This document shows positions 3,739 to 63,569 of a DNA stretch of 64,000 nt, piece by piece. Made by a program: the position numbers and the translations under genes. The stretch spans positions 2,457 to 66,456 of IMG/VR virus record IMGVR_UViG_3300042452_000950, one strand, 5' to 3'. Position 1 is the stretch's first letter, and each line of letters starts with the position of its first letter. This DNA comes from a virus. The notes beneath the pieces are model-generated. The model was not told the DNA's origin. It ran no database searches and was given only the letters and a program-made list of their open reading frames with translations.

Positions 3739-5415
3739 ATGATCAGAAAATTCAAAGGCGAGTCGTTATTCCTTGAGCGGGAACGTGATTTCTCTAAAAC
3801 TGCTGCCATCAAGGTTGGAAAAAATCCTGCTGAATGGCCCACAGAGATAATCGAGATGCTACATGAACAGCATCCGTATTTAGCTGAAAGTAACATCCAG
3901 ATCAGCATGAAGAAAACTGACGAGGATTCAGGAGCCGGGCTCGGTAGTATTGTTATTGATGATAAGGCGATGATCCCCCTTGTTATCGAGAATAACAAGG
4001 TTGCGTCTTTGGATATGTTCTACGACGGTGATCAGCTCTTCCCGATGACTCGGGATAGAATTGAAGCAGTTAGCCGAGGTACTAGCATCGGAAAGCCGGT
4101 AACACCTGCCAAGGGAGAAGTTACTGATAGTTCACTCGTCCAAAGTGTGCATCCTCCGTACGATGGCAAGTACACTTTTGCATCTGATCTTACTTATTCC
4201 AAGAAAGACTTTTCAGATGCTATCAGCCGATCGTTCAGCTATCAAGGCCTAGTTGCCGAACTTTCCAATCCAATCTGGAAAGAAGCGCTAGCGGCTTACA
4301 TCGGTTCGGATAAGAAGACCGTATCCGAGACTACAAACAAACCTGCTTTGGTCAAAAAAGCAAGCTCTGTTTACACAGCTCCTAAACACAGTGGTGTCTA
4401 TGAAGTTGTAACAGAGAAGGGCCCTATGGTCGGTATGTTTGTCAGCCAACTACAAAAGTTCGCTGAGCATAGTGGGCATAGCGGCTTATTCATCAATACT
4501 GCGACAGGGCAGTATTCGAAATTGACAACTGAAGAAGTAGCGGCGCGTGAAGTAAACCAGTTACCTCAGGTCAAGTTAGCCAACTTATCGGGTAAGGGAG
4601 TCTTCGTTGTTCCCGGAGATAAGCACGGCGTAACTGTGACCGATCCTATTGAAATCAAATACCGGGACGGTGATCACTACGAGGCCGTCGATGAATACGG
4701 AAGAAAGTTCACGCTTTATAAGAGTGCTGAATTTGTCAATATCGAGGTTGCCGGACGAGTCATTGGTATCCCAGAGCGCTCGGTATTTGTTCCACTGACT
4801 GAACAGATTAAGCTTGCCAGCCCAAACTTCCTTGACCGAGGCGGCAACCGGCTCGAAATTTCGCGGATGGGTGATAAGTACTTTGCCAAAACTGCGGCAG
4901 AAATCCCAACTGTGTCCGAGCTTCCTGACGACGGTGCTTACATCGACGAAATGATCCTGGCTCTTCAGGCCCACTTTAATGTTGCGCCGATCGAGTCTGA
5001 TTTGCGCAAGTTGGCGAACAAATCTAAGATAAACCTATCTTGGACAACCGCTCCTGTAGTTGAAAAGACCGCCGGAAAAACGATTGAGCTATCTCTTACG
5101 GAAAAATCAGCGCTAACTAAGGTCGCATCGTACTTCGATGAAAAGACCTTGCGCATGATTAAGCTCTCTCAAGAGCAAGGTAAGAAAACAGTAGACGCAC
5201 TTCTCGGACTGAACTTTGTCGGTCCAGAAAACATGCAAAGATTTGTAGACAAAATTGAAACCATTTCTCAAGCACGGCAGGCTGTGGGCGAGTTACTTCT
5301 TGCTTCGAGACTTGGCTTGGATGTTGACCAAATGCCACTTAAGACTGCATTCCAAGCACTAGATAAGATCGAGTCCGAGTTACGACAGTTACGTACCATG
5401 GAAAGTGCCGTATGA
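3739..5415 (+). CDS. Hypothetical head-associated protein rich in K-x-A motifs
   Basis: 558-aa ORF, GGAG RBS; about 15 K-x-A motifs (SKTAA, NKVAS, VKKAS, IKLAS, EKTAG, TKVAS...). Confidence 0.7.
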   Translation: MIRKFKGESLFLERERDFSKTAAIKVGKNPAEWPTEIIEMLHEQHPYLAESNIQISMKKTDEDSGAGLGSIVIDDKAMIPLVIENNKVASLDMFYDGDQLFPMTRDRIEAVSRGTSIGKPVTPAKGEVTDSSLVQSVHPPYDGKYTFASDLTYSKKDFSDAISRSFSYQGLVAELSNPIWKEALAAYIGSDKKTVSETTNKPALVKKASSVYTAPKHSGVYEVVTEKGPMVGMFVSQLQKFAEHSGHSGLFINTATGQYSKLTTEEVAAREVNQLPQVKLANLSGKGVFVVPGDKHGVTVTDPIEIKYRDGDHYEAVDEYGRKFTLYKSAEFVNIEVAGRVIGIPERSVFVPLTEQIKLASPNFLDRGGNRLEISRMGDKYFAKTAAEIPTVSELPDDGAYIDEMILALQAHFNVAPIESDLRKLANKSKINLSWTTAPVVEKTAGKTIELSLTEKSALTKVASYFDEKTLRMIKLSQEQGKKTVDALLGLNFVGPENMQRFVDKIETISQARQAVGELLLASRLGLDVDQMPLKTAFQALDKIESELRQLRTMESAV

Positions 5416-6505
5416 AAGGACAGTCTTGGTTGAGCCGGTATATTCAAGACCGCGCATCGCCAAAGAGTTTAAGATAAATGAGAAAACTCTTAGTTGGTTA
5501 GAGCGAACTGGTCGAATCCATATTGAGTGGAGAGCTGAAAACGGTCTCCTCGTAGCAGAACTATCTGAAGATACTCAAAGAGTTCTCCGGTGTGCTTCGT
5601 CGTCTATACCCGCACTAAAAGTTCCTGAAGGACTAACTCTTCTACCTTTCCAGCGCTTCTTACATTTACGGTTCTTACAGCTTTCTCTGGAGGAACTATA
5701 TCAAGAACTGCAGGATAGGAATCTAATCAATCCTAACGTTTTCCCTTTGAGTCAACTGGAGGCGTTAAGAGAGATGTTCATTGCGGGACTTCCCTTATTG
5801 GTTCAGAGGTCCCTCCGCACTGGAATCCGTCCAGAGACCGATGAAGAAAAGTTGGAACTAGCTACCGTGTTAGACGTCTGCGAGATAGCTGTCGCATATC
5901 AACATCCTGAACTTGAGCAGGCTTTCAAATTCATGACAGAGAGTCCGGTTAAGGACTGTTTAGACTGCGCTTTGAGCACTAAAGCCACACTTGTAGAAGT
6001 GCAGACATTCCTAAAAGAAGTTGCGGACTTTCCTATATCGGTCGAAGGTCTTGCGTTCTATCAATCTGTCTTCCATGATATCTCTCTAGTAAGCCCAGAT
6101 CAGTTTAAAAAATATCTGAAGCTCATAAAACCATCTCTGCGGGCTAAAATGGCTTTAGCAGTTAACTGCACGATAGAAGACTTTAGACTCAAGTCAGGAT
6201 ACGAGCGTGACTTCGAGGTTGATCAAGTTCTCAACGCCTTTAAGGGCGCGCTGACCGATAACCTCATCTCATTGATAAATACGAAAACACCTGACAGCGA
6301 AAAGGCGTTCCACTACACGCTTAGAAGTCTCATGATGGTGATTGACCGACTTGAGAAAGCGGGTCTAAAAAATAAAGGCTCGAATACAAAGTTATTAGAG
6401 TCTCCTGATTTACTAAAATCGATACAATTAGAGCCCCAAGAAATGAGTCGGATGGGCATATTTCGAAGTGTCTCCGACACAGACGTGAACGCTAACCTAA
6501 GTTGA
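5405..6505 (+). CDS. Hypothetical helical protein (terminase small subunit candidate by position only)
   Basis: 366-aa ORF directly upstream of the large terminase; possible N-terminal HTH (RIAKEFKINEKTLSWLER). Confidence 0.55.
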   Translation: MPYERTVLVEPVYSRPRIAKEFKINEKTLSWLERTGRIHIEWRAENGLLVAELSEDTQRVLRCASSSIPALKVPEGLTLLPFQRFLHLRFLQLSLEELYQELQDRNLINPNVFPLSQLEALREMFIAGLPLLVQRSLRTGIRPETDEEKLELATVLDVCEIAVAYQHPELEQAFKFMTESPVKDCLDCALSTKATLVEVQTFLKEVADFPISVEGLAFYQSVFHDISLVSPDQFKKYLKLIKPSLRAKMALAVNCTIEDFRLKSGYERDFEVDQVLNAFKGALTDNLISLINTKTPDSEKAFHYTLRSLMMVIDRLEKAGLKNKGSNTKLLESPDLLKSIQLEPQEMSRMGIFRSVSDTDVNANLS

Positions 6506-53574: not shown

Positions 53575-55548
53575 TCACTTAATAGGGCAAGCCCCGCCTT
53601 CACATTCAAAACTATCCTTTAACTCTACATGAGTAGTTAATCCTGCTGTGATGGGCTTAATCTTCGCGGCCATGGTCTCGAATTGCTCCTTCGTGATCTC
53701 TTCGTAAGGAGCCTGAGCAAATCCGTGGTCCGAGTGGAGCAGGAACGAGATCGCTTTAATCGATGTGTTAAAGTTAGCTTTCAACCAATCTTTTATCTGA
53801 TCAAGTTCCTCGTACTTATAGTAGACAGTACAGGAAACACTGTTATCAGACCAATGCGTCTGCAGGAATTTGACCGTTTCGAGCATCTCGATCGCCGTAA
53901 CCTCTTTCGCTGTCTTTCCGCTACGAGACCGGACAGGGAAACTGACCACCATAGTATCGTGATCCTTTGAACCGTCGAGTCGGAGCACCGGCTCAACGTG
54001 ATGACCCGTGTTTCTGCAGAGCGCGACTAACGGATCGTTTGCAGCCATGCGCACACGACGGATATAGAACGGTGCGTAGTCAGGGTGGGCGCCAGGAGCG
54101 ACACCTGACAGGAGTGACAGTGTTCCGGACGGCTTGATTGTTGTTAGTTTGATCGAGGGATTGATCTGCTTGCCGTGAATCTGAGACAGCGTCTTAGAGA
54201 ATTCTACGTCGGTCTGCTCAAGATGCTGATAGACAACATCAAGAGCCTGCTCATTAACAAATGACGGGCGCTGATACCATCCGGTAATTCCTTGACCGAG
54301 ACGACGGTTCTTTTCTAAGATCTTATTGGCTTCGGGCCAGTGGTGCGGAACTGTGGTAATGATCTTCTGTACCTTATACAAAAGTTCAGCTACCTCTTTA
54401 AATTCAGCGATATCGCGGATGTTCGGCAAGTGAATTTCGGCGAGATTGCAGCTTTCTTTATCTTCTAATGTAATCTCCGCGCACGGGTTAGTTCCCATGA
54501 CGTCCGGATCGATCCTGTGGAGATCTTTGAGACGGCCCTTCTGGCGGCAAAGCTTAAGGTTCATCAATCCGTAAGGCTCACCCTCCTTCGGCATATACCC
54601 ATTCCAGAACTCGTCAGGAATGTTGTCGAACGAGTTAGCAACAATCGTATTATTGCTCTTGTCTCTCCACGACGGAATAGCTCCCGTGGACCACCGCTTG
54701 GCACGGAGGAAGTTGAAATCATCCGGATCTCCAAGAGCCAGCTCCGCAGAACGGCGGACGTTACCAGCTACAACGATTGATCCTATGATGTTAGCAATGT
54801 CGAGCACATCAATAGGTCGCAGACGCTTCATCGTGCGGCTCTTAAAGATTTTGCAGATGTCTTCTAACCCAGAGCACAGGTCTTCGGGGCCGCTAGCTAC
54901 CCCACCGAATCCTTTGATAGGCGTCCCTTTTCCGCGCACACATATAGTTGAATACGAGAAGGACTTACCCGTCTCGAAGAACGATTCTAAAGTTCTTGCT
55001 AGGAGTTCTACCCAGCCCTCACGTGAGTCCGGAACAATGAAATCGGCGTCGCTTGTATCCTGACGGGTAATATTGACGCCCCGCTTGATGATGGGAAGTT
55101 GATATACGTGTTCTTTCTGAATGTTAAAGCCGACACCACCTCCTAGCATCAACATTTCAAAAAGGAAACAGAACGCCGACGGCTTATCAAAGGTGACGAA
55201 GTAGCAGTTATTAAGACTGGCAGATCCAATACGATCGACGGTTTTGGATCCGAGTTGCCAGAAGGCTCTTCCAGATACGGTTCCTTTTAGGTTGAAGATA
55301 TGGTCATAGAGACGCATACCCTCGTCAATCGTCATAGCTCCGCGAGATAGCTTTAACACAGCGTTAACAACGCGCTCGCAGGTTTCCCACATCTCCTCAG
55401 TTCTGTCTTGTCCTTCAACTTTGCGGGAATACGTACGCTTGTAGACAATATACCCGACGGGGCCCCAGGGAACTGAAAGATTGCGGTAGGCCTCCACAAA
55501 AGCCTTGGGCAATTGCGGAACGGAATTGATAACTTCAGTAGTCTGCAT
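53575..55548 (-). CDS. nrdJ: Class II (B12-dependent, monomeric-type) ribonucleotide reductase
   Basis: VYKRTYSR, SLNNC, MLGGGVGF, VVAGNVRRSAE, GTNPCAEI, TTIKPSGT, C-terminal CEGGACPIK; no small subunit adjacent. Confidence 0.93.
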   Translation of the reverse strand: MQTTEVINSVPQLPKAFVEAYRNLSVPWGPVGYIVYKRTYSRKVEGQDRTEEMWETCERVVNAVLKLSRGAMTIDEGMRLYDHIFNLKGTVSGRAFWQLGSKTVDRIGSASLNNCYFVTFDKPSAFCFLFEMLMLGGGVGFNIQKEHVYQLPIIKRGVNITRQDTSDADFIVPDSREGWVELLARTLESFFETGKSFSYSTICVRGKGTPIKGFGGVASGPEDLCSGLEDICKIFKSRTMKRLRPIDVLDIANIIGSIVVAGNVRRSAELALGDPDDFNFLRAKRWSTGAIPSWRDKSNNTIVANSFDNIPDEFWNGYMPKEGEPYGLMNLKLCRQKGRLKDLHRIDPDVMGTNPCAEITLEDKESCNLAEIHLPNIRDIAEFKEVAELLYKVQKIITTVPHHWPEANKILEKNRRLGQGITGWYQRPSFVNEQALDVVYQHLEQTDVEFSKTLSQIHGKQINPSIKLTTIKPSGTLSLLSGVAPGAHPDYAPFYIRRVRMAANDPLVALCRNTGHHVEPVLRLDGSKDHDTMVVSFPVRSRSGKTAKEVTAIEMLETVKFLQTHWSDNSVSCTVYYKYEELDQIKDWLKANFNTSIKAISFLLHSDHGFAQAPYEEITKEQFETMAAKIKPITAGLTTHVELKDSFECEGGACPIK

Positions 55549-55581
55549 GAAATAGTTCCTTGTAAAAATGTTGGTTCCCTT

Positions 55582-55609
55582 ATTTTAGCATGACTTGTTG
55601 TCCCTACAA
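55582..55609 (-). promoter_or_regulatory. Sigma70-like promoter for nrdJ
   Basis: TTGTAG-N16-TAAAAT with TG extension (TGCTAAAAT). Confidence 0.45.
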
Positions 55610-55619
55610 CTACCTTATT

Positions 55620-55672
55620 AAAAAAATAAATGGTAGCGGAATACGACACAACAAGTGACGCATCCCGCTACC
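55620..55672 (-). terminator. Intrinsic terminator after the helicase gene
   Basis: GGTAGCGGGATGCG...CGTATTCCGCTACC followed by ATTTATTTTTT. Confidence 0.7.
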
Positions 55673-55699
55673 TCCAAACCATTCCCAATAGTCTTATGA

Positions 55700-57064
55700 C
55701 TAATAATCGCCGTCTTCTGCGGCCTCCAGATCTTCGGTTCGACCAATCTGATCAAACTTCATCTCGTGATAGTCCCAGTTAAACCTATAAGGATTACCGG
55801 GAGTACCGTCACGAACCTTCATCGAAGTGATGTCGATCTGCTTGGCTTTACGCAGAGCCGGAGGTTGAAACAAGCCGATAATGTTGTTTGAGTCTTGGCC
55901 GATGCTCATAGAGAAGGCGATGTCATCGGTCGAGGATGTATGAATATTTTTAGATCCTTGTTTGAATTGCGTGGCAAGCATGTAATGCCTGTCGGTTAGA
56001 AGAGTGTGAAGACGCATCTGCTGCATATTAGCCTCGACACGTTCCCAGCGCTTCTCTCCGGGACCTTGCATGTAATAGAATCCGTCAATGACCACGAGTG
56101 AGGCCCCGAAGTCGTCCGCCTGCGCCCTAATCTGTTCCGGTGTTCCTGCGGTATCGGGGCCGACGATGCGAATGTTATCGCCGACCACGACCCCGTAGTC
56201 GTTAGGAACTGTCAGCAGATCGATTCCTTTATTGTAGGCTGCACGTTCTTCTGGAGATATTTTTCCAGACCTGAGTCTGTTAAAGCTGACTCTCGTGTAG
56301 AGAGATGCCAGGCGTCTTGAAATATCTAGAACAGGCATTTCACAGCTAACTACAAGAACCTTAGTTTGTAATTCTTTCTTGCGAGCGTCAGTGAGCGGAA
56401 TAATATCCTGAGGTCGATGAACAATAAAAGGATCTCCGCTAGCAGCAGAAATCGCAGATAGAAGTACGAACCAGGTTTTCCCTACACCGGTCTTTGCTAG
56501 AACACCCGTAATTTGGGCAGGCTGCCATCCAAGTAGTTCCTCATAAAGGAAATAAAACGGAATAGGAATTCCAGCGGCCTCGCCAGCGATCACCTTATCG
56601 AGATCGTCCCTGAGCAGAGGAACCATCTCTGACAAGGTGGCTACACGTCCGCTGGACCTCGTATACTTTGAATGCATCTTGCGGAGAGCCTCGTCCATAA
56701 ACTGGAGCAGTGGCTTTCCGTCCGGAGTGCTTTCGTATTCTTTTGCCAAATCATTAGAGAACGCCTGTATATCTACCCTAATGGAGCGGCTTACAACCTC
56801 GTCGTATAGAGACTGAAGCGGGGCTCTAGGAATTTTTGAATTGAACAGCACTTCCTTAGGAAGCTGTTCAAATCTCTGGAGTACCATTTTGTGATCAGGA
56901 ATCTGCTTGTATTTATTCCTGTATTCAACAATGTACTCTACAACGTCTTTATAGGGCTCGGAAAAGACAGTTGGAGTCAGCCCTTGTTTGAGAAGCTGGT
57001 TAACCTCTCCAGCATCGGCTGTGACTAACTTAGTTAGAAACAGCGGCTCAATCCGTTCCATCAT
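55700..57064 (-). CDS. dnaB: DnaB-like replicative helicase
   Basis: LAKTGVGKTW, VSCEMP, RLRSGKI, VVIDGFYY, LATQF, SIGQDS, KVRDG. Confidence 0.9.
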   Translation of the reverse strand: MMERIEPLFLTKLVTADAGEVNQLLKQGLTPTVFSEPYKDVVEYIVEYRNKYKQIPDHKMVLQRFEQLPKEVLFNSKIPRAPLQSLYDEVVSRSIRVDIQAFSNDLAKEYESTPDGKPLLQFMDEALRKMHSKYTRSSGRVATLSEMVPLLRDDLDKVIAGEAAGIPIPFYFLYEELLGWQPAQITGVLAKTGVGKTWFVLLSAISAASGDPFIVHRPQDIIPLTDARKKELQTKVLVVSCEMPVLDISRRLASLYTRVSFNRLRSGKISPEERAAYNKGIDLLTVPNDYGVVVGDNIRIVGPDTAGTPEQIRAQADDFGASLVVIDGFYYMQGPGEKRWERVEANMQQMRLHTLLTDRHYMLATQFKQGSKNIHTSSTDDIAFSMSIGQDSNNIIGLFQPPALRKAKQIDITSMKVRDGTPGNPYRFNWDYHEMKFDQIGRTEDLEAAEDGDY

Positions 57065-57591
57065 GACTTGAGGGCGTCTTCCAGTTGTTTGTACTGAATA
57101 ATCGAGGGTAATGTGTCGTGATTAGGTCCGATAACGATTGTGATATTGCGATGTCGCTGTTGACGACTATTGATGATCTTATCCAACTCAGCTCTATGAT
57201 TACGACAGATTGCTTCTGAGGTATTGTCTGGGATATTTGAAATGATCAATACATCTGCGGTTTTGTAACTGGTGAAGATGTCAGTTTCTGTCCAATTACA
57301 CATGGCAACTTCTCTACCAGGGTTCCTTGGAAACTTTGTGCCATCACACCACATGGCGATATCAGCATAGTTGCTAAATGCTTTGACAATCGAAGCTACC
57401 TGCTTGATGTCTCTCATGCTATCGATATTGAAAATAGGGATATCTTTCGCAATCATATATGGAGTTTTTACCAGCTCGATCGGAGCGCACTTAGCGATCA
57501 GCTCAATTATCTTTGGCTGAAATCCTGTATCAGTGTTATCGAGCCAATCCTTAATGGATCTCGACTCGTGAATCGGTTTATCCCATATCAT
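57061..57591 (-). CDS. Degenerate DnaC/IstB-like helicase-loader candidate
   Basis: ADVLIISNI..LDKIINSRQQRHRNITIVI resembles the C-terminal half of DnaC; coupled to dnaB; no Walker A. Confidence 0.45.
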   Translation of the reverse strand: MIWDKPIHESRSIKDWLDNTDTGFQPKIIELIAKCAPIELVKTPYMIAKDIPIFNIDSMRDIKQVASIVKAFSNYADIAMWCDGTKFPRNPGREVAMCNWTETDIFTSYKTADVLIISNIPDNTSEAICRNHRAELDKIINSRQQRHRNITIVIGPNHDTLPSIIQYKQLEDALKS

Positions 57592-58616
57592 CGGAACTTG
57601 TTTTGTTGAAGGATGTGAGGGTAATTCTCCAGCAGGGCGCTGCTAGAGATCCGGATGAATTTAGCTCGATTTTTAAACTCTTCTAGGGTTGTAGCACCGA
57701 CATAGGACATAGACGAGCGAATTCCCTCGAAAATTTCTCGGAATACACGAGAAGTACTTCCTACTTCTTGGGTAGTGACCATCGTAGTAATGCCTTCATC
57801 GTTAGCAAACTTGCCTTTAAACGCTTCTTGCGCGGCCTTGCTTGCCATGCCTCGGTATGTAGATATTCCCATTCCATACCCATCGGTAAAGTCCGTTCCG
57901 GCAAACATAGAACCCGTCATGACGGCCTTAACGTTAGGAAGTGCTAGAGCCTTGGCGATATCTCCAGTGTGCTTAAATCCACCATCTGCAATGATCTGAA
58001 CGCCAACTTCTGAGCAAAGACTGAGTGCAGAGAACTGCGGCATTCCGACGCCTGTTTTAAGCCTGGTAGTGCAGACAGATCCGGCTCCGATGCCAACTTT
58101 GATAATATGCGCTCCCCACTCATGTAATCTGGATACAGCTTCAGGTGTGCACACATTACCGGCGATGACTCGGCATCCAGGATACTCATCTCGGATATAC
58201 CAAATGGTCTCCTTCATATTCACTGAGTCGCCGTGAGCGATATCAATACACATACCACAGTTTAATTTTCCAAGCATGTCGATGCGTTCTCTATCCTGGT
58301 GAATAACTCCCACTGAAAAGAACGACTCATCAGACCATGTATCGACTACAGCTTTTTTCATTTGCTCAACCGATAGATATCGGTGAAGAATACCGATGCC
58401 GATCTTTTCCATAGTAACGTATTTAACCATGGCTACCCCACTGATGGTATCCATGTTGGCAGGGATGACCGGTTTTGTTTTGATATAACCGAGATCGCCA
58501 AAATCGAATTTAGTTTCTATTGAAACATCAGATCTTGATCTGACTGCTGAATGTGCGGGAACAATCAGGACATCATCAAACGTTAGATAATTGATAGCCG
58601 GGTTGTACAGGTCCAT
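57588..58616 (-). CDS. guaB: IMP dehydrogenase / GMP reductase family protein, no CBS domains
   Basis: LTFDDVLIVP, ANMDT, GILHR, DIAHG, KVGIGAGSVCTTR, IADGG, YRGMAS; IMPDH vs GMPR not resolvable by eye. Confidence 0.9.
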   Translation of the reverse strand: MDLYNPAINYLTFDDVLIVPAHSAVRSRSDVSIETKFDFGDLGYIKTKPVIPANMDTISGVAMVKYVTMEKIGIGILHRYLSVEQMKKAVVDTWSDESFFSVGVIHQDRERIDMLGKLNCGMCIDIAHGDSVNMKETIWYIRDEYPGCRVIAGNVCTPEAVSRLHEWGAHIIKVGIGAGSVCTTRLKTGVGMPQFSALSLCSEVGVQIIADGGFKHTGDIAKALALPNVKAVMTGSMFAGTDFTDGYGMGISTYRGMASKAAQEAFKGKFANDEGITTMVTTQEVGSTSRVFREIFEGIRSSMSYVGATTLEEFKNRAKFIRISSSALLENYPHILQQNKFR

Positions 58617-59907: not shown

Positions 59908-60576
59908 TTAGGATTTTTGTTCGTCCGGTGTCTCTTTGTTCTTGAAGAGATTGCTCAATTTCATCGAATCAAAATTCATCTTGGGCTTAGCCTCGGTATC
60001 GATAGGCTTTGTTGCGCCCTGATTGATGACATTGAATGGATAATATCTGGCTAACGTCCCTAAAGCCTTAATCCAGTAGCCGGGATAAAATCCCACTTCT
60101 TTTGCTTTGGGCATAACTTCGCAGAAATTTTCCCAGCTAGCAAACCACTGCTCAATAATCAGCAGTGCCTCTTTTCTAGAAAGTGAGAAATGCTGAGCCA
60201 GGGCGTCTACAAAATCTCGGGATTGTTTCACTGCGAATGAAACAGATTTCGTTGATTTGGATAAATCTGTATCAATTCCGTGCTTGACACTCAAGAGCAT
60301 GAGGTAAGCGCGTAGCTTTTCTCCGCTCCATTTGTGCGCCTGCTCCAAATCGTATTGGGATTTTCCAGAGAACACCTGGATCTGTTCTTTCATACGCTCA
60401 AGTCTTTTACCACTTGCGGGCCTAGTGCTCTTGTTGCGCTCGGCGCGCTTCTCAGCTTTGCGTTCGATGCGGCGCGAAGCCTCGATGAACTCCGATGAGT
60501 TAAGAGCATCTTTCAGTGATTTAGGGTCTTTTCTCATTTTGTGCATCGGCGGATAAGCGACGTTGTCGTTGGTCAT
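59908..60576 (-). CDS. Hypothetical basic protein
   Basis: 222-aa ORF, Lys/Arg-rich N-terminus. Confidence 0.65.
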   Translation of the reverse strand: MTNDNVAYPPMHKMRKDPKSLKDALNSSEFIEASRRIERKAEKRAERNKSTRPASGKRLERMKEQIQVFSGKSQYDLEQAHKWSGEKLRAYLMLLSVKHGIDTDLSKSTKSVSFAVKQSRDFVDALAQHFSLSRKEALLIIEQWFASWENFCEVMPKAKEVGFYPGYWIKALGTLARYYPFNVINQGATKPIDTEAKPKMNFDSMKLSNLFKNKETPDEQKS

Positions 60577-61090: not shown

Positions 61091-61729
61091 TCAGAGTGCC
61101 TGAACGATGATGTTATACGGATTTTGGACAACGAAGTACGGCTCTTGCTCCCATTCCGCAACCGTTGAGAAGTTATCTCCGTATTCCGTGAGAATAGCAA
61201 ACCAGACGTACCACGTCGCAGTGTCCAACGAGTAGAGCGTCTTTTCGCTTTCAGGAAGTTTCGGATAGTGTTGGGAATCGAGCAGGAGCTTTCCTTCTCG
61301 GCTGACCGGGATTCGATCGTACCCAGATTGCTGTCTAGTCGCCTTCTTTCGAGGGAGATTCTTCAGCGTCTCTTGGTCGATCTTGTTCGGTCTATCGGCA
61401 ATGGCTCTTACTGCCGTTGCTCCAATGCGACCGATATCCTCCCGCTCTTCCTTGACCTTCGCCACGTTAATCATCTTGGACGAGAAGAACACATAGGTTT
61501 CTTCAAGGTTTTCAGATGAGTGAACGCAACAAAGGTCAATCGGCATCCGAGGATCTGTCGTAAGTCCAGCAATTTGATCTGATTTAATCGGATGCACCTT
61601 GCGAGTGCCCGACTTAGGATGACCGAGATAGAGGGCGCGTCTGTCCGGAGACATCAGCGAGGAGTTAGCATAAATCTGAGGTGTTTGGCTCGGATACGTT
61701 AACAGCTTTTGACTCGTGCTTGCAATCAT
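61091..61729 (-). CDS. Hypothetical protein
   Basis: 212 aa, AAGGA RBS, terminator downstream. Confidence 0.7.
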   Translation of the reverse strand: MIASTSQKLLTYPSQTPQIYANSSLMSPDRRALYLGHPKSGTRKVHPIKSDQIAGLTTDPRMPIDLCCVHSSENLEETYVFFSSKMINVAKVKEEREDIGRIGATAVRAIADRPNKIDQETLKNLPRKKATRQQSGYDRIPVSREGKLLLDSQHYPKLPESEKTLYSLDTATWYVWFAILTEYGDNFSTVAEWEQEPYFVVQNPYNIIVQAL

Positions 61730-62462: not shown

Positions 62463-62714
62463 TTAGTTATCGGGAACTTCGTCTTTTTCTAAGAAAATTA
62501 ACGTATTGAAGTTGTGCTGATACTCTCTACGTAGCGCCTCAGAAACGCTGTCATCAAGATTAGTCATCCATCTGATTTGGGCCTCGTGTGCCTGTACTGC
62601 CGCCTCAACGATTCCTTGAGCGCGCACAAAGTTATCTTCTTCTGTCTTGTCTCCAGAAGTAGGAAATCCAGCGGCTACCAGCTCAACAGCTTCTCTAAGT
62701 CCCATGTACTTCAT
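62463..62714 (-). CDS. Small hypothetical protein
   Basis: 83 aa, AAGGAG RBS. Confidence 0.65.
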   Translation of the reverse strand: MKYMGLREAVELVAAGFPTSGDKTEEDNFVRAQGIVEAAVQAHEAQIRWMTNLDDSVSEALRREYQHNFNTLIFLEKDEVPDN

Positions 62715-62868
62715 TATCTTTCTCCTTTTCGACTAGTTTAGTCAGCACTTCTACAGCTAGCTGGTAGTTGCTCCAATCATGTGCACAACTGGGATCTGAG
62801 TAGTCGAAGTGATACGAATACCTCGGATCTCCTACGATCAGAATTTTTAGCGCTTCTTCGGGTTTCAT
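62695..62868 (-). CDS. Small hypothetical protein (start MKPEEALK)
   Basis: AAGGAG RBS; the ORF-track start lies inside the tRNA. Confidence 0.6.
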   Translation of the reverse strand: MKPEEALKILIVGDPRYSYHFDYSDPSCAHDWSNYQLAVEVLTKLVEKEKDNEVHGT

Positions 62869-62913
62869 GTTCTCTCCTTGTACCGGGCTAAGTTTCCTCT
62901 GCCCAGATTTGAA

Positions 62914-63017
62914 TGGTCGGCCCGGAGGGACTCGAACCCTCAACCATCCCTATATCAGAGGGCGCCTTTCGGGGCGGATTATAAATCCGCTGCTCTAACC
63001 AATTGAGCTACGGGCCG
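62914..63017 (-). tRNA. tRNA-Ile(UAU), 104 nt, with a 27-nt insertion containing a second GAU anticodon-like arm
   Basis: CGGCCCG/CGGGCCG acceptor + ACCA; D arm GCTC-AATTGGTTA-GAGC; GCGGA-TTTATAA-TCCGC; T arm GAGGG-TTCGAGT-CCCTC. Confidence 0.9.
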
Positions 63018-63114
63018 TTTTAGGTTAGAGCAGCCAGGCAAGGGAAGCCTGAACACAGAGATGGTTACTTACAGTCTATCAGAATTTCTAGGCGATTGTT
63101 ATCAATTTAGATTT

Positions 63115-63261
63115 TTATTGGTGCTTCATTTCTTCACCACATAGATAACAGACGAGCTTTCCCGTATTTGGAATAGCTCCATTGTAGCGGTACTTACAGT
63201 AAACACCTTCCATAGGTGTGCCGCTATTATAGATGGCAAACGTTCGTGAACAGAGATTCAT
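63115..63261 (-). CDS. Small Cys-rich protein (48 aa)
   Basis: MNLCSRTF...VYCKY...VCYLCGEEMKHQ; GAGGAG RBS; ATGA overlap. Confidence 0.55.
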   Translation of the reverse strand: MNLCSRTFAIYNSGTPMEGVYCKYRYNGAIPNTGKLVCYLCGEEMKHQ

Positions 63262-63569
63262 TTGCTCTCCTCGTCGCTGTCTTCAATTCCGTACCCGGAT
63301 CCTTTACCGACCGAGTAGCCGTAGTTTTCTCCACGACCGTCGCCGTGTCCGTCTCCATCACTATAGCCATATCCGTATTTACCTAACCCGTGACCCTCAC
63401 CGAAGGATTCTGCCATACCGTAGGCACCTTCATAACTGAATCCGTTTCCACTGCCGTGCCCATCGTCTCCCATATAGTCACCGTACCCGGATCCGTTTCC
63501 GTAACCTTCAGAATACCCGAACCCCTCGCCTTGACGGCTCATTTTGCCCCTAATCATTTTGGGATTCAT
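63258..63569 (-). CDS. Gly-X (GY/GD/GS) repeat protein
   Basis: MNPKMIRGKMSRQG then Gly at alternate positions; GAGGA RBS. Confidence 0.7.
   Translation of the reverse strand: MNPKMIRGKMSRQGEGFGYSEGYGNGSGYGDYMGDDGHGSGNGFSYEGAYGMAESFGEGHGLGKYGYGYSDGDGHGDGRGENYGYSVGKGSGYGIEDSDEESK

What the first reader, a model, noticed from the sequence alone, without database searches (positions are those of the whole stretch)
62914..63017. tRNA-Ile with two tandem anticodon arms (UAU and GAU)
Seen (minus strand): CGGCCCG UA GCUC-AAUUGGUUA-GAGC A [GCGGA-UU UAU AA-UCCGC] C CC-GAAA-GG C [GCCCU-CU GAU AU-AGGGA] UGGUU GAGGG-UUCGAGU-CCCUC CGGGCCG ACCA. After a perfect UAU anticodon arm there is a GNRA mini-hairpin, then a second 17-nt stem-loop with a 7-nt loop CU-GAU-AU, then a normal 5-nt variable loop. 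Both triplets are isoleucine anticodons. Removing either arm plus the linker (27 nt) gives a canonical 77-nt tRNA-Ile. Established: most bacteria read AUA with lysidine-modified CAU (TilS), UAU anticodons are rare, and E. coli IleRS identity includes A73, C4:G69, U12:A23, C29:G41 and the GAU/LAU anticodon. Here A73, C4:G69 and U12:A23 are present, and C29:G41 occurs only in the GAU arm (which has U38 rather than A38). Inference: a division-of-labour tRNA that shows the GAU arm to IleRS for charging and the UAU arm to the ribosome, bypassing TilS. Alternatives are a decoy arm against anticodon nucleases or a precursor processed to either isoacceptor. I do not know a described example, but could not check the literature.
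Basis: partly seen in the sequence, partly recalled or inferred. Interest (0 to 1): 0.95.

Follow-up and report, generated by a model that had tools for sequence, protein, structure and literature searches.

The report
Phage isoleucine tRNA with two anticodon arms
This lake-phage gene is a real tRNA for the rare isoleucine codon AUA. Besides its UAU anticodon arm it has a tiny hairpin and a second, conserved arm showing GAU, the ordinary isoleucine anticodon; I found no paper on this layout, and it may be how the charging enzyme accepts the tRNA.

Summary
Window 62914-63017 (minus strand) is a 104-nt tRNA gene, scoring 64.5 bits against Rfam's cut-off of 29. It has a UAU anticodon arm, a CC-GAAA-GG mini-hairpin and a second arm, G-CCCU-CUGAUAU-AGGG-A. 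ARAGORN misses it.

It is not an assembly error: contigs from two other studies span it unchanged.

It belongs to a large recurrent class.
- Of 124 IMG/VR matches to a pattern that fixed only a CWGAUUA loop in the variable region, 117 carry anticodon UAU.
- The second-arm helix covaries.
- Twelve distinct sequences, the window's included, share the window's exact layout with an invariant CCGNAAGG.
- Matched scans with CAU or GAU anticodons gave 13 and 10 loci, few of them truly long-armed, against 54 for UAU.

E. coli tRNA-Ile(GAU) aligns to the window's second arm.

My best reading, at about 40%, is that the GAU arm supplies isoleucyl-tRNA synthetase (IleRS) identity that a UAU anticodon lacks. 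This is untested. Against it, 23 of 37 long-armed UAU tRNAs lack GAU, and the loop usually has A33 and U37.

Five literature searches found no description. This scan has noted the same class before on other DNA.

The parts
62914..63017 (-). Whole tRNA gene, 104 nt including the encoded CCA (101 nt up to discriminator A73 at 62917)
   Evidence: Rfam RF00005 scores 64.5 bits at 62917-63017, minus strand. Sequence read. It is the only tRNA in the 66,456-base record.
63011..63017 (-). Acceptor stem, 5' strand CGGCCCG. It pairs with 62918-62924 (CGGGCCG). C4:G69 is present.
   Evidence: All 7 acceptor pairs covary in both family alignments.
62992..63008 (-). D arm GCUC-AAUUGGUUA-GAGC, a 4-bp class I type stem with U12:A23
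   Evidence: It is identical to the D arm of the tRNA(CAU) annotated tRNA-Met in Acinetobacter phage ZZ1.
62974..62990 (-). Arm 1, the primary anticodon arm GCGGA-UUUAUAA-UCCGC. The anticodon UAU lies at 62981-62983.
   Evidence: The Rfam alignment places it at model positions 27-43. UAU is invariant in alignments A2 and A4.
62965..62972 (-). Mini-hairpin CC-GAAA-GG with a GNRA tetraloop, flanked by single C residues at 62973 and 62964
   Evidence: Fold. CCGNAAGG is invariant in 12 of 12 sequences of this subtype, although the search pattern allowed any S-S pairs.
62947..62963 (-). Arm 2, the second anticodon-type arm G-CCCU-CUGAUAU-AGGG-A. GAU lies at 62954-62956. C29:G41 and C30:G40 equivalents are present.
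   Evidence: The helix is 99.5% paired with 4 of 4 pairs compensatory in 54 sequences, and 5 of 5 pairs compensatory in the 12-sequence subtype. E. coli ileV aligns here.
62942..62946 (-). Five-nt variable loop UGGUU between arm 2 and the T arm
   Evidence: The 3' linker is 4-6 nt in 60 of 61 parsed relatives (L018 has 2 nt). GGUU is shared with the phage ZZ1 tRNA(CAU).
62925..62941 (-). T arm GAGGG-UUCGAGU-CCCUC

Best explanation
This is a working phage tRNA that reads the isoleucine codon AUA with the UAU anticodon of arm 1, with no need for lysidine (TilS).

Its variable region holds a GNRA mini-hairpin and a second arm that copies the anticodon arm of the ordinary tRNA-Ile(GAU). I think the most likely job of that arm is to give the host isoleucyl-tRNA synthetase (IleRS) the G34-A35-U36 (and C29:G41) contacts that a UAU anticodon does not offer. 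The tRNA would then be charged with isoleucine through one arm and would decode with the other.

Shown here:
- It is a real, conserved gene.
- The second arm is conserved, with a GAU centre and a covarying stem.
- That arm is tied to a UAU primary anticodon.

Inferred, not shown:
- The geometry. Either arm 2 takes the anticodon-arm position in an alternative stacking, or it is reached as a side arm.
- That the RNA is expressed and charged.
For: Gene quality. Rfam scores it 64.5 bits. Independent assemblies are identical. Related two-arm genes sit inside phage tRNA arrays, directly next to ordinary tRNAs.

Tie to UAU.
- The pattern AGAGC..CWGATTA..T-loop did not specify the anticodon. Of its 124 matches, 117 carry UAU, 5 are not tRNAs and 2 are odd.
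- The same long-variable-region pattern gave 54 loci with UAU. With CAU it gave 13 loci, at most 3 truly long-armed; with GAU it gave 10 loci, 5 truly long-armed. None of those has a GAU hairpin.

GAU loop where the loop was not specified. 14 of 37 unique long-armed tRNA(UAU) have a 7-nt loop centred on GAU on a stem of at least 3 bp. Chance is 1 in 64 per loop.

Helix. Columns 56-59 with 67-70 are 99.5% paired, with 4 of 4 pairs compensatory. In the window's subtype 5 of 5 pairs are compensatory.

Identity-type conservation. C29:G41, a minor E. coli IleRS determinant (PMC9976931 Table 1 passage), is kept in:
- 26 of 29 distinct second arms,
- 10 of 34 first arms,
- 27 of 76 arms of normal-length phage tRNA(UAU),
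- 25 of 137 other tRNA arms.

The primary loop has C38 instead of A38 in 22 of 34 distinct arms, against 11 of 76 in normal-length tRNA(UAU).

MAFFT aligns E. coli ileV to the window's arm 2, with 6 of 7 loop letters the same plus C29:G41 and C30:G40.

Need for a handle. E. coli IleRS charges tRNA-Ile(UAU) poorly, and Trp905 is the key residue (PMC3575796 abstract and section 16). The bacterium that carries a two-arm tRNA of this subtype on an ssrA island (L307) has Trp at that site and has tilS.

Use of AUA. AUA makes up 163 of 16,588 codons in 35 long ORFs, 16.8% of Ile codons. This is the phage fragment's only tRNA.

Positions needed for decoding on the ribosome vary in arm 2 (mostly A33 and U37), while G34-A35-U36 stay. 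This fits a protein-read loop better than a second decoding anticodon.
Against: There are no experimental data on expression, size, charging or structure.

IleRS is a class I synthetase. By general knowledge, which I recall and did not test, such enzymes leave the variable region facing solvent. A side arm could therefore reach the anticodon-binding domain only after a rearrangement.

The second loop is not a faithful copy. A33 occurs in 25 of 29 distinct arms and U37 in 25 of 29 (most of those loops were fixed by the search pattern). t6A37, reported as an IleRS determinant, cannot form on U37. The window itself has U38, not A38.

C29:G41 is kept in only 7 of 12 members of the window's own subtype, and C4:G69 in 4 of 12.

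23 of 37 long-armed tRNA(UAU) have no GAU loop: 14 have CUNNCAA and 9 have other hairpins. At least 120 loci hold normal-length phage tRNA(UAU). The extra GAU arm is therefore not required for every phage tRNA(UAU).

Counts are not corrected for shared ancestry. Many sequences come from a few related phage lineages.

The host of the window's phage is unknown.
Confidence: 0.4

Rival explanations
1. The tRNA decodes AUA and is charged through arm 1 and the body in the usual way. The second arm is a handle for some other partner, for example a modification enzyme acting on U34 or A37, a stabilising or anti-degradation fold, or an anti-determinant against a wrong synthetase. GAU would be kept for that partner, not for IleRS.
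For: Long variable arms on tRNA(UAU) also come with non-GAU loops: 14 CUNNCAA and 9 others among 37. An extra arm as such therefore seems useful to UAU tRNAs. The second loop departs from a true Ile anticodon loop at positions 33 and 37. Normal-length phage tRNA(UAU) are common. CCGNAAGG is conserved in sequence, not only in pairing, which suggests a specific contact.
Against: No candidate partner was found. No protein family is shared near the gene: the largest neighbour cluster covers 22 of 113 loci. The conserved letters, GAU and C29:G41, are exactly those of tRNA-Ile(GAU), which this reading leaves as a coincidence.
Confidence: 0.3
2. Decoy or bait: the GAU arm soaks up a host defence or toxin that attacks the anticodon loop of tRNA-Ile(GAU), protecting translation during infection.
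For: Phages do counter tRNA-targeting defences (general knowledge, recalled). The arm resembles the tRNA-Ile(GAU) arm.
Against: A decoy could sit on any tRNA, yet 117 of the 119 tRNA-like matches carry UAU. I know of no nuclease specific for tRNA-Ile(GAU), and none turned up in the listings. A33 and U37 make the loop a poor copy.
Confidence: 0.07
3. Two decoding heads: either arm can enter the ribosomal A site, so that one tRNA reads AUA (with UAU) and AUU/AUC (with GAU).
For: In the window, arm 2 has a canonical loop with U33 and A37, followed by a normal 5-nt variable loop. Taking out either arm plus the linker leaves a standard 77-nt tRNA (arithmetic 104-27). E. coli ileV aligns colinearly through arm 2.
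Against: Across the family the second loop mostly has A33 and U37 (25 of 29 distinct arms; mixed in the subtype). That would break the U-turn needed for decoding. Hosts already have abundant tRNA-Ile(GAU).
Confidence: 0.06
4. Precursor: the 27-nt block is an intron-like insert, or the RNA is cut and rejoined to give one or other isoacceptor.
For: Removing 27 nt gives a canonical tRNA in two ways.
Against: No intron or ribozyme family matches, even at E<=1. 27 nt is far too short for a group I intron (general knowledge). The insert is conserved as a helix with a conserved loop, which is not expected of a spacer. A contig from an RNA library holds 62909-63003 unspliced, but this is weak evidence because DNA may be present in that library.
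Confidence: 0.04
5. Class II-type mischarging: the long variable arm makes it a substrate of LeuRS, SerRS or TyrRS, recoding AUA. This would be like the nematode nev-tRNAs or the allo-tRNAs.
For: Class II tRNAs with a UAU anticodon exist: nev-tRNA (PMC3333845, abstract as listed) and allo-tRNA(UAU) (PMC5389517, passages).
Against: The body is class I. It has a 4-bp D stem, a 7/5 acceptor/T branch and A73, and its D arm is identical to that of a T4-like phage tRNA(CAU). The extra arm has a 7-nt loop and a 5-nt 3' linker, unlike class II variable arms (the class II features are recalled). Of 6 AUA codons in the DNA polymerase, two fell in the stretch aligned to Taq polymerase, opposite Leu and Ala, which is uninformative.
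Confidence: 0.03
6. Artefact or dead gene: a mis-assembly of two tRNA genes, or a decaying pseudogene.
For: ARAGORN does not call it.
Against: Contigs from runs of two other studies span it unchanged, and an identical copy lies in another record. All stems are intact. The architecture recurs with compensatory changes in 12 distinct sequences.
Confidence: 0.02

Closest known systems
TilS-independent bacterial tRNA-Ile(UAU), e.g. Mycoplasma mobile tRNA-Ile2 (PMC3575796; abstract and section 16 read)
   Same: A UAU anticodon reads AUA without lysidine, and A73 is present. It faces the same problem: ordinary Trp905-type IleRS recognises UAU poorly.
   Different: The known solution is a change in the enzyme (Arg865 in M. 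mobile IleRS), and the tRNA is of normal length. Here the tRNA itself carries an extra GAU arm, and the one host checked (that of L307) keeps Trp and has tilS.
Bacterial tRNA-Ile(GAU), e.g. E. coli ileV (fetched)
   Same: Arm 2 plus the 5-nt variable loop aligns to the ileV anticodon arm: loop CUGAUAU against CUGAUAA, with C29:G41 and C30:G40. A73, C4:G69 and U12:A23 are shared.
   Different: ileV has one arm and 77 nt. The window's tRNA has a further UAU arm and a mini-hairpin between position 26 and that arm.
Class II tRNAs with long variable arms, including nev-tRNA(UAU) (PMC3333845, abstract in the listing only) and allo-tRNA(UAU) (PMC5389517, passages)
   Same: An extra helix lies between the anticodon arm and the T arm. 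Some carry the UAU anticodon.
   Different: Those are Leu or Ser bodies, or have 8/4 or 9/3 branches, and are charged without regard to the anticodon. The window's tRNA has a class I Ile-type body and a 7/5 branch. Its extra arm has a 7-nt anticodon-like loop and a 5-nt 3' linker.
Anticodon-loop mimics in mRNA leaders that bind their own synthetase (E. coli thrS operator; PMC9976931 passage)
   Same: An RNA hairpin shows an anticodon-like loop to a synthetase away from a normal tRNA anticodon position.
   Different: Those are regulatory mRNA elements. Here the mimic is built into a decoding tRNA.
T4-like phage tRNA(CAU) annotated tRNA-Met in Acinetobacter phage ZZ1
   Same: The D arm is identical, arm 1 is near-identical (stem GCGGA/UCCGU) and GGUU is shared in the variable loop. 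Over the 42 nt compared, identity is 90.5%.
   Different: ZZ1 has C34 and no insertion. The window's tRNA has U34 and 27 extra nt after position 43.

Membership tests
tRNA (Rfam RF00005) | Score above the curated cut-off over the full model, i.e. a cloverleaf with acceptor, D, anticodon and T arms | tested here: met
   64.5 bits against a cut-off of 29, model positions 1-71 of 71. The fold shows all four arms.
Bacterial tRNA-Ile identity set (E. coli; PMC9976931 Table 1 passage) | A73, C4:G69 and U12:A23 | tested here: met
   Read directly from the sequence.
Bacterial tRNA-Ile identity set (E. coli) | G34 or lysidine-34, with A35, U36 and C29:G41, in the anticodon arm | tested here: inconclusive
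   Arm 1 has U34 and G29:C41, so it does not meet this. Arm 2 has G34-A35-U36 and C29:G41, so it does. Whether IleRS reads arm 2 is unknown.
Bacterial tRNA-Ile identity set (E. coli) | A37 (t6A), A38 and G16 | tested here: inconclusive
   Arm 1 has A37 and A38. Arm 2 has A37 and U38. The D loop has U16, not G16. Modification state cannot be tested.
TilS-independent tRNA-Ile(UAU) system (M. mobile type) | UAU anticodon on a tRNA of normal length | tested here: not met
   The UAU anticodon is present, but the variable region is 32 nt instead of about 5.
TilS-independent tRNA-Ile(UAU) system (M. mobile type) | Partner IleRS with Arg or Lys at the E. coli Trp905 site, in a host lacking tilS | not testable with these tools
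   The host of the window's phage is unknown. The one bacterial carrier of the subtype (L307) has Trp at that site and has tilS.
Class II tRNA (Leu, Ser, Tyr) | Long variable arm on a class II body: short-looped variable arm with a 1-2 nt 3' linker, and the class II D-arm layout (features recalled, not from a call) | tested here: not met
   The D stem has 4 bp. The extra arm has a 7-nt loop and a 5-nt 3' linker. The 3' linker is 4-6 nt in 60 of 61 parsed relatives.
allo-tRNA (PMC5389517) | 8/4 or 9/3 acceptor/T-stem branch | tested here: not met
   The window has a 7-bp acceptor stem and a 5-bp T stem. The definition was read in the passages.
Intron-containing tRNA | Group I intron, or a bulge-helix-bulge intron removed from the precursor | tested here: not met
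   No intron or ribozyme family matches at E<=1. The insert is a conserved helix with a conserved loop. Splicing itself cannot be tested here.
Recurrent two-arm tRNA(UAU)/GAU class (this scan; not in print as far as searched) | UAU primary arm, then a second hairpin with a GAU-centred 7-nt loop, then a 4-6 nt linker and the T arm | tested here: met
   The window aligns without gaps to 53 relatives and to 11 of its own subtype.

The most novel reading that the evidence does not exclude
This is a switch tRNA in which charging identity and decoding sit on two separate arms. In one stacking the GAU arm lies under the D stem, followed by its normal 5-nt variable loop, and is read by IleRS as if the molecule were tRNA-Ile(GAU). 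In the other stacking the UAU arm takes that place and reads AUA on the ribosome. The invariant CCGNAAGG mini-hairpin would act as the hinge, or would dock its GNRA loop to set the geometry. Mobile elements could then bring in an AUA decoder that needs neither TilS nor an adapted IleRS.
Probability: 0.2. Interest if true: 0.93.

Novelty: new variant of a known kind. Interest (0 to 1): 0.8.

Why it matters
Every textbook tRNA has one anticodon arm, which serves both the synthetase (for most amino acids) and the ribosome. If this class separates the two roles, it would be a natural way to change what a tRNA reads without changing who charges it. Synthetic biologists try to engineer exactly this.

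It would also explain how phages and islands supply AUA decoding in hosts whose IleRS rejects UAU, and without waiting for TilS.

There is a practical point too. ARAGORN called none of the 10 such genes I gave it: the window's and those in 9 related loci. That suggests these tRNAs are under-counted in phage annotations, although other tRNA finders were not tried.

Tried and rejected
Close relatives of the phage. The search for related loci with the 212-aa neighbour protein and with the DnaB-like helicase found nothing in viral contigs. My first strict DNA pattern also found nothing. blastn of the 2-kb region against GenBank phages matched only 42 nt of a tRNA in Acinetobacter phage ZZ1.

Neighbour proteins. 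Five of the ORFs nearest the tRNA (window 62463-62714, 62695-62943, 63258-63569, 61091-61729, 59908-60576) match no PHROG family, and the last two match no Pfam family; the 48-aa ORF immediately upstream (63115-63261) was not scanned. I clustered 1,835 ORFs lying within 3 kb of two-arm tRNAs in 113 loci. No widely shared partner emerged; the largest cluster covers 22 loci.

Meaning of AUA. Alignment of the DNA polymerase to PDB homologues covered only two AUA positions, opposite Leu and Ala in Taq. I dropped this test as uninformative.

Expression signals. The consensus scan found no sigma-70-like promoter in 62600-63400. It found one terminator-like hairpin at 63152-63165 on the minus strand, upstream of the tRNA.

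RNA evidence. The only RNA-library hit is one 190-nt contig that covers 62909-63003 and then diverges. It does not show transcription. Parts of the stretch without cover in runs X5 and X17 say nothing.

False positives.
- L294 is a normal tRNA-Ile(GAU), and L299 is a different tRNA-like RNA.
- L302, L304, L305 and L309 (Vibrio and Enterovibrio) hold the same RNA as L299. L303 and L308 are chance matches.
- L056 (two matches), L067, L104 and L149 are not tRNAs. L109 and L135 are odd.
- L008, L012, L017, L030 and L046 are not simple long-armed tRNAs.

Rows dropped before counts.
- The scripts kept only stretches with AGAGC at the expected place, at least 6 of 7 acceptor pairs and a length of 84-101 nt. 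Truncated L039 fell out.
- The 88-nt subgroup (L066, L079, L084, L103, L128, L130, L131, L146) and the shifted-register genes (L075, L080, L148, L162) fell out of the 61-sequence set.
- L061 fell out of the 61-sequence set because its second stem pairs poorly.
- Alignment A2 holds 54 of those 61, after removing rows with the same arms and acceptor stem.

I considered a pairing between positions 33 and 37 of the second loop (A-U in 47 of 54, U-A in the window). I did not lean on it, because ordinary anticodon loops also have U33 and A37 without pairing them.

Supplementary files of PMC3575796 (IleRS alignment and kinetics) and of PMC5389517 could not be seen. They may bear on how general the Trp905 rule is.
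Full report
**What is there.**
The parts in order are:
- a 7-bp acceptor stem;
- a 4-bp D arm;
- arm 1, GCGGA-UUUAUAA-UCCGC, with anticodon UAU at 62981-62983;
- a single C;
- the mini-hairpin CC-GAAA-GG (62965-62972);
- a single C;
- arm 2, G-CCCU-CUGAUAU-AGGG-A (62947-62963, GAU at 62954-62956);
- a 5-nt variable loop, UGGUU;
- a T arm, then A73 and an encoded CCA.

The outermost position of arm 2 is a G.A mismatch, so arm 2 has four Watson-Crick pairs.

Rfam's tRNA model scores 64.5 bits against a cut-off of 29. It reads arm 1 as the anticodon arm and treats the rest as an insertion in the variable region. No other RNA family matches, even at E<=1. ARAGORN finds no tRNA in the window. The minimum-free-energy fold shows the cloverleaf and both extra hairpins.

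**Context.**
The window is most of a 66,456-base viral record, rated 34% complete. This is its only tRNA. The fragment encodes a family A DNA polymerase, a DnaB-like helicase, a class II ribonucleotide reductase and a GMP reductase-type enzyme. The tRNA lies on the same strand as its small neighbouring ORFs, which match no family. AUA makes up 163 of 16,588 codons in 35 long ORFs, which is 16.8% of isoleucine codons.

**Not an artefact.**
Contigs from runs of two other studies span the gene. One covers 62500-63160 with no difference. The other covers 62812-63452 with a single difference at 63396, outside the tRNA. A further metagenome record holds an identical copy (L293).

**A large family.**
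- *Scan for long-armed UAU tRNAs.* This IMG/VR scan fixed only a D-stem strand, the loop UUAUAA and the T loop, and required a long variable region. It returned 54 loci. Of 37 unique sequences that my script could parse, 14 have a 7-nt loop centred on GAU on a stem of at least 3 bp, 14 have a loop CUNNCAA, and 9 have other hairpins.
- *Scan for the CWGAUUA loop.* This scan fixed that loop in the variable region but left the anticodon free, and it hit its 120-locus limit. Of 124 matches, 117 carry UAU as the primary anticodon, 5 are not tRNAs and 2 are odd.
- *Matched controls.* The same long-arm pattern with CAU or GAU as the anticodon gave 13 and 10 loci. Most of these are normal tRNAs where the match ran on to a second site. 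At most 3 and 5 loci respectively have a real long arm, and none has a GAU hairpin. I did not measure how many normal-length CAU and GAU tRNAs the collection holds, so these are raw counts.
- *Normal-length tRNA(UAU).* These are also common in phages: at least 120 loci and 102 unique sequences.

**The second arm is a real helix.**
In an alignment of 54 two-arm tRNAs, into which the window fits without a gap, the arm 2 helix is 99.5% paired. All four pairs show changes on both sides, and the whole structure beats all 500 shuffles and every slid register.

**The window's exact layout recurs.**
A pattern for UAU loop, S-S-GNRA-S-S and GAU found real examples in metagenome records (L288-L292, L295-L298, L300), in IMG/VR (L089) and in two Nevskiaceae genomes (L306, L307).

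In the 12 distinct sequences:
- all five arm 2 pairs covary;
- the D stems differ widely;
- CCGNAAGG is invariant, although other G/C pairs were allowed by the pattern.

These genes sit inside phage tRNA arrays, next to ordinary tRNAs. ARAGORN calls none of them. In L307 the gene lies just after ssrA and a phage-type integrase, so it is on an integrated element.

**What the second arm resembles.**
MAFFT aligns E. coli tRNA-Ile(GAU) (ileV, fetched from the annotated genome) colinearly to the window's arm 2. The loops are CUGAUAA and CUGAUAU, and C29:G41 and C30:G40 are shared. A T4-like phage tRNA(CAU) aligns to arm 1 instead, with an identical D arm.

Across the AGAGC-type family the C29:G41 equivalent, a minor E. 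coli IleRS determinant (PMC9976931, passage), is kept in:
- 26 of 29 distinct second arms;
- 10 of 34 first arms;
- 27 of 76 arms of normal-length phage tRNA(UAU);
- 25 of 137 arms of other neighbouring tRNAs;
- 7 of 13 phage tRNA-Ile(GAU) arms.

The primary loop has C38 rather than A38 in 22 of 34 distinct arms, against 11 of 76 in normal-length tRNA(UAU). These contrasts are not corrected for shared descent.

**How it most likely works.**
E. coli IleRS charges tRNA-Ile(UAU) poorly, and Trp905, which stacks on the wobble base, is responsible. M. mobile solved this by changing the enzyme (PMC3575796, abstract and section 16).

A mobile element cannot change the host enzyme, but it can change its tRNA. 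The tie between a GAU-centred second loop and a UAU primary anticodon, the Ile-type stem pair, and the loss of A38 from the primary loop all fit a second arm that supplies isoleucine identity. The one bacterial carrier I could check has Trp at the Trp905 site of its IleRS and has tilS, so its enzyme is of the type expected to reject UAU.

In the family the second arm keeps G34-A35-U36 but often has A33 and U37. Those positions matter for decoding on the ribosome. This argues that the arm is read by a protein rather than used as a second decoding head.

I put this reading at about 0.4.

**What speaks against it.**
- Nothing has been measured.
- By general knowledge (recalled), a class I synthetase leaves the variable region facing away from itself. 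The arm could serve only if the molecule restacks so that arm 2, with its normal 5-nt variable loop, takes the anticodon-arm position. That is an inference from linker lengths, not a result.
- U37 excludes t6A37 in most second loops, and the window's loop has U38.
- In the window's own subtype C29:G41 is kept in only 7 of 12 and C4:G69 in 4 of 12.
- 23 of 37 long-armed tRNA(UAU) have no GAU.
- Normal-length phage tRNA(UAU) are abundant.

A different partner for the arm therefore remains a serious rival (0.3). The decoy, dual-decoding, processing, mischarging and artefact readings are weaker, for the reasons given under rival explanations.

**Known or new.**
It is not an allo-tRNA, because its branch is 7/5 rather than 8/4 or 9/3 (PMC5389517 passages). 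It does not have a class II body.

Five full-text searches returned no paper describing a tRNA with a second, anticodon-like GAU arm. Subscription-only papers are outside that library.

This scan's own notes show the same class reported many times on other DNA: 102 notes. One of them is a 101-nt form with a GNRA hairpin. Later checks there priced the IleRS reading at 13-42 in 100. I re-derived the main counts independently. My new contributions are:
- the matched CAU and GAU controls;
- the normal-length control for C29:G41 and position 38;
- the alignment of the subtype;

**Verdict.**
This is a real, conserved and unusual tRNA-Ile(UAU), with a mini-hairpin and a second GAU arm, and a member of a recurrent class that I could not find in print. 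The division-of-labour mechanism is plausible and directly testable, but unproven.

Noticed in passing
L004, L013, L019, L023-L026, L028, L029, L035, L037, L038, L045, L055 (positions listed): A second class of phage tRNA(UAU) has a long variable arm whose loop reads CU-NNC-AA. The middle triplets are AGC, CAC, GAC, AAC or UAC, so it is anticodon-loop-like but not GAU. There are 14 unique sequences. Its role is unknown, and it weighs against a single explanation for all long-armed UAU tRNAs.
   Followed up: partly
L307:4513-7377: In Sinimarinibacterium sp. CAU 1509 a two-arm tRNA(UAU) of the window's subtype (6384-6482) sits on an element integrated at ssrA. The order is tmRNA gene, phage-type integrase (5036-6268), the tRNA, then an HD_4 domain protein. 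The host's IleRS has Trp at the E. coli Trp905 site, and the host has tilS.
   Followed up: yes
L066, L079, L084, L103, L128, L130, L131, L146 (88-nt tRNAs): In this subgroup the UAU arm has either an A.C mismatch closing a 7-nt loop UUUAUAU, or a 9-nt loop. The second hairpin is only 2-3 bp, CC(C)-AGAUUA-GGG.
   Followed up: no
L302, L304, L305, L309 and L299: Vibrio and Enterovibrio genomes share a conserved tRNA-like 3' domain with a GCGAAAGC hairpin that matched my pattern by chance. It looks like the end of a larger RNA, possibly tmRNA. I did not check.
   Followed up: no
L020, L326, L327, L331: A variable arm of the form GGCCAnnUGGU occurs on phage tRNAs with either a UAU or a GAU anticodon. 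L320 is a tRNA(CAU) with a GNRA-capped variable arm. Long variable arms on Ile- or Met-type bodies are therefore not limited to UAU, only much rarer.
   Followed up: partly
L046:2812-2912: A 101-nt tRNA(UAU) whose variable region holds a GAAA hairpin followed by a near-repeat (GCAGCAGAUCGAGA / GCAGCAGGUCGAG). It may be a duplicated or decaying second arm.
   Followed up: no
window 53575-58616: The phage fragment carries a class II (B12-type) ribonucleotide reductase and a GMP reductase/IMPDH-family enzyme next to its DnaB-like helicase. These are nucleotide-metabolism genes.
   Followed up: no
L289:2134-2312, L290:1868-2043: In two phage tRNA arrays the two-arm tRNA(UAU) lies immediately beside a tRNA with anticodon CAU. 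That neighbour could be Met or a lysidine-dependent Ile2. If it is Ile2, the phage carries both AUA-decoding solutions.
   Followed up: no
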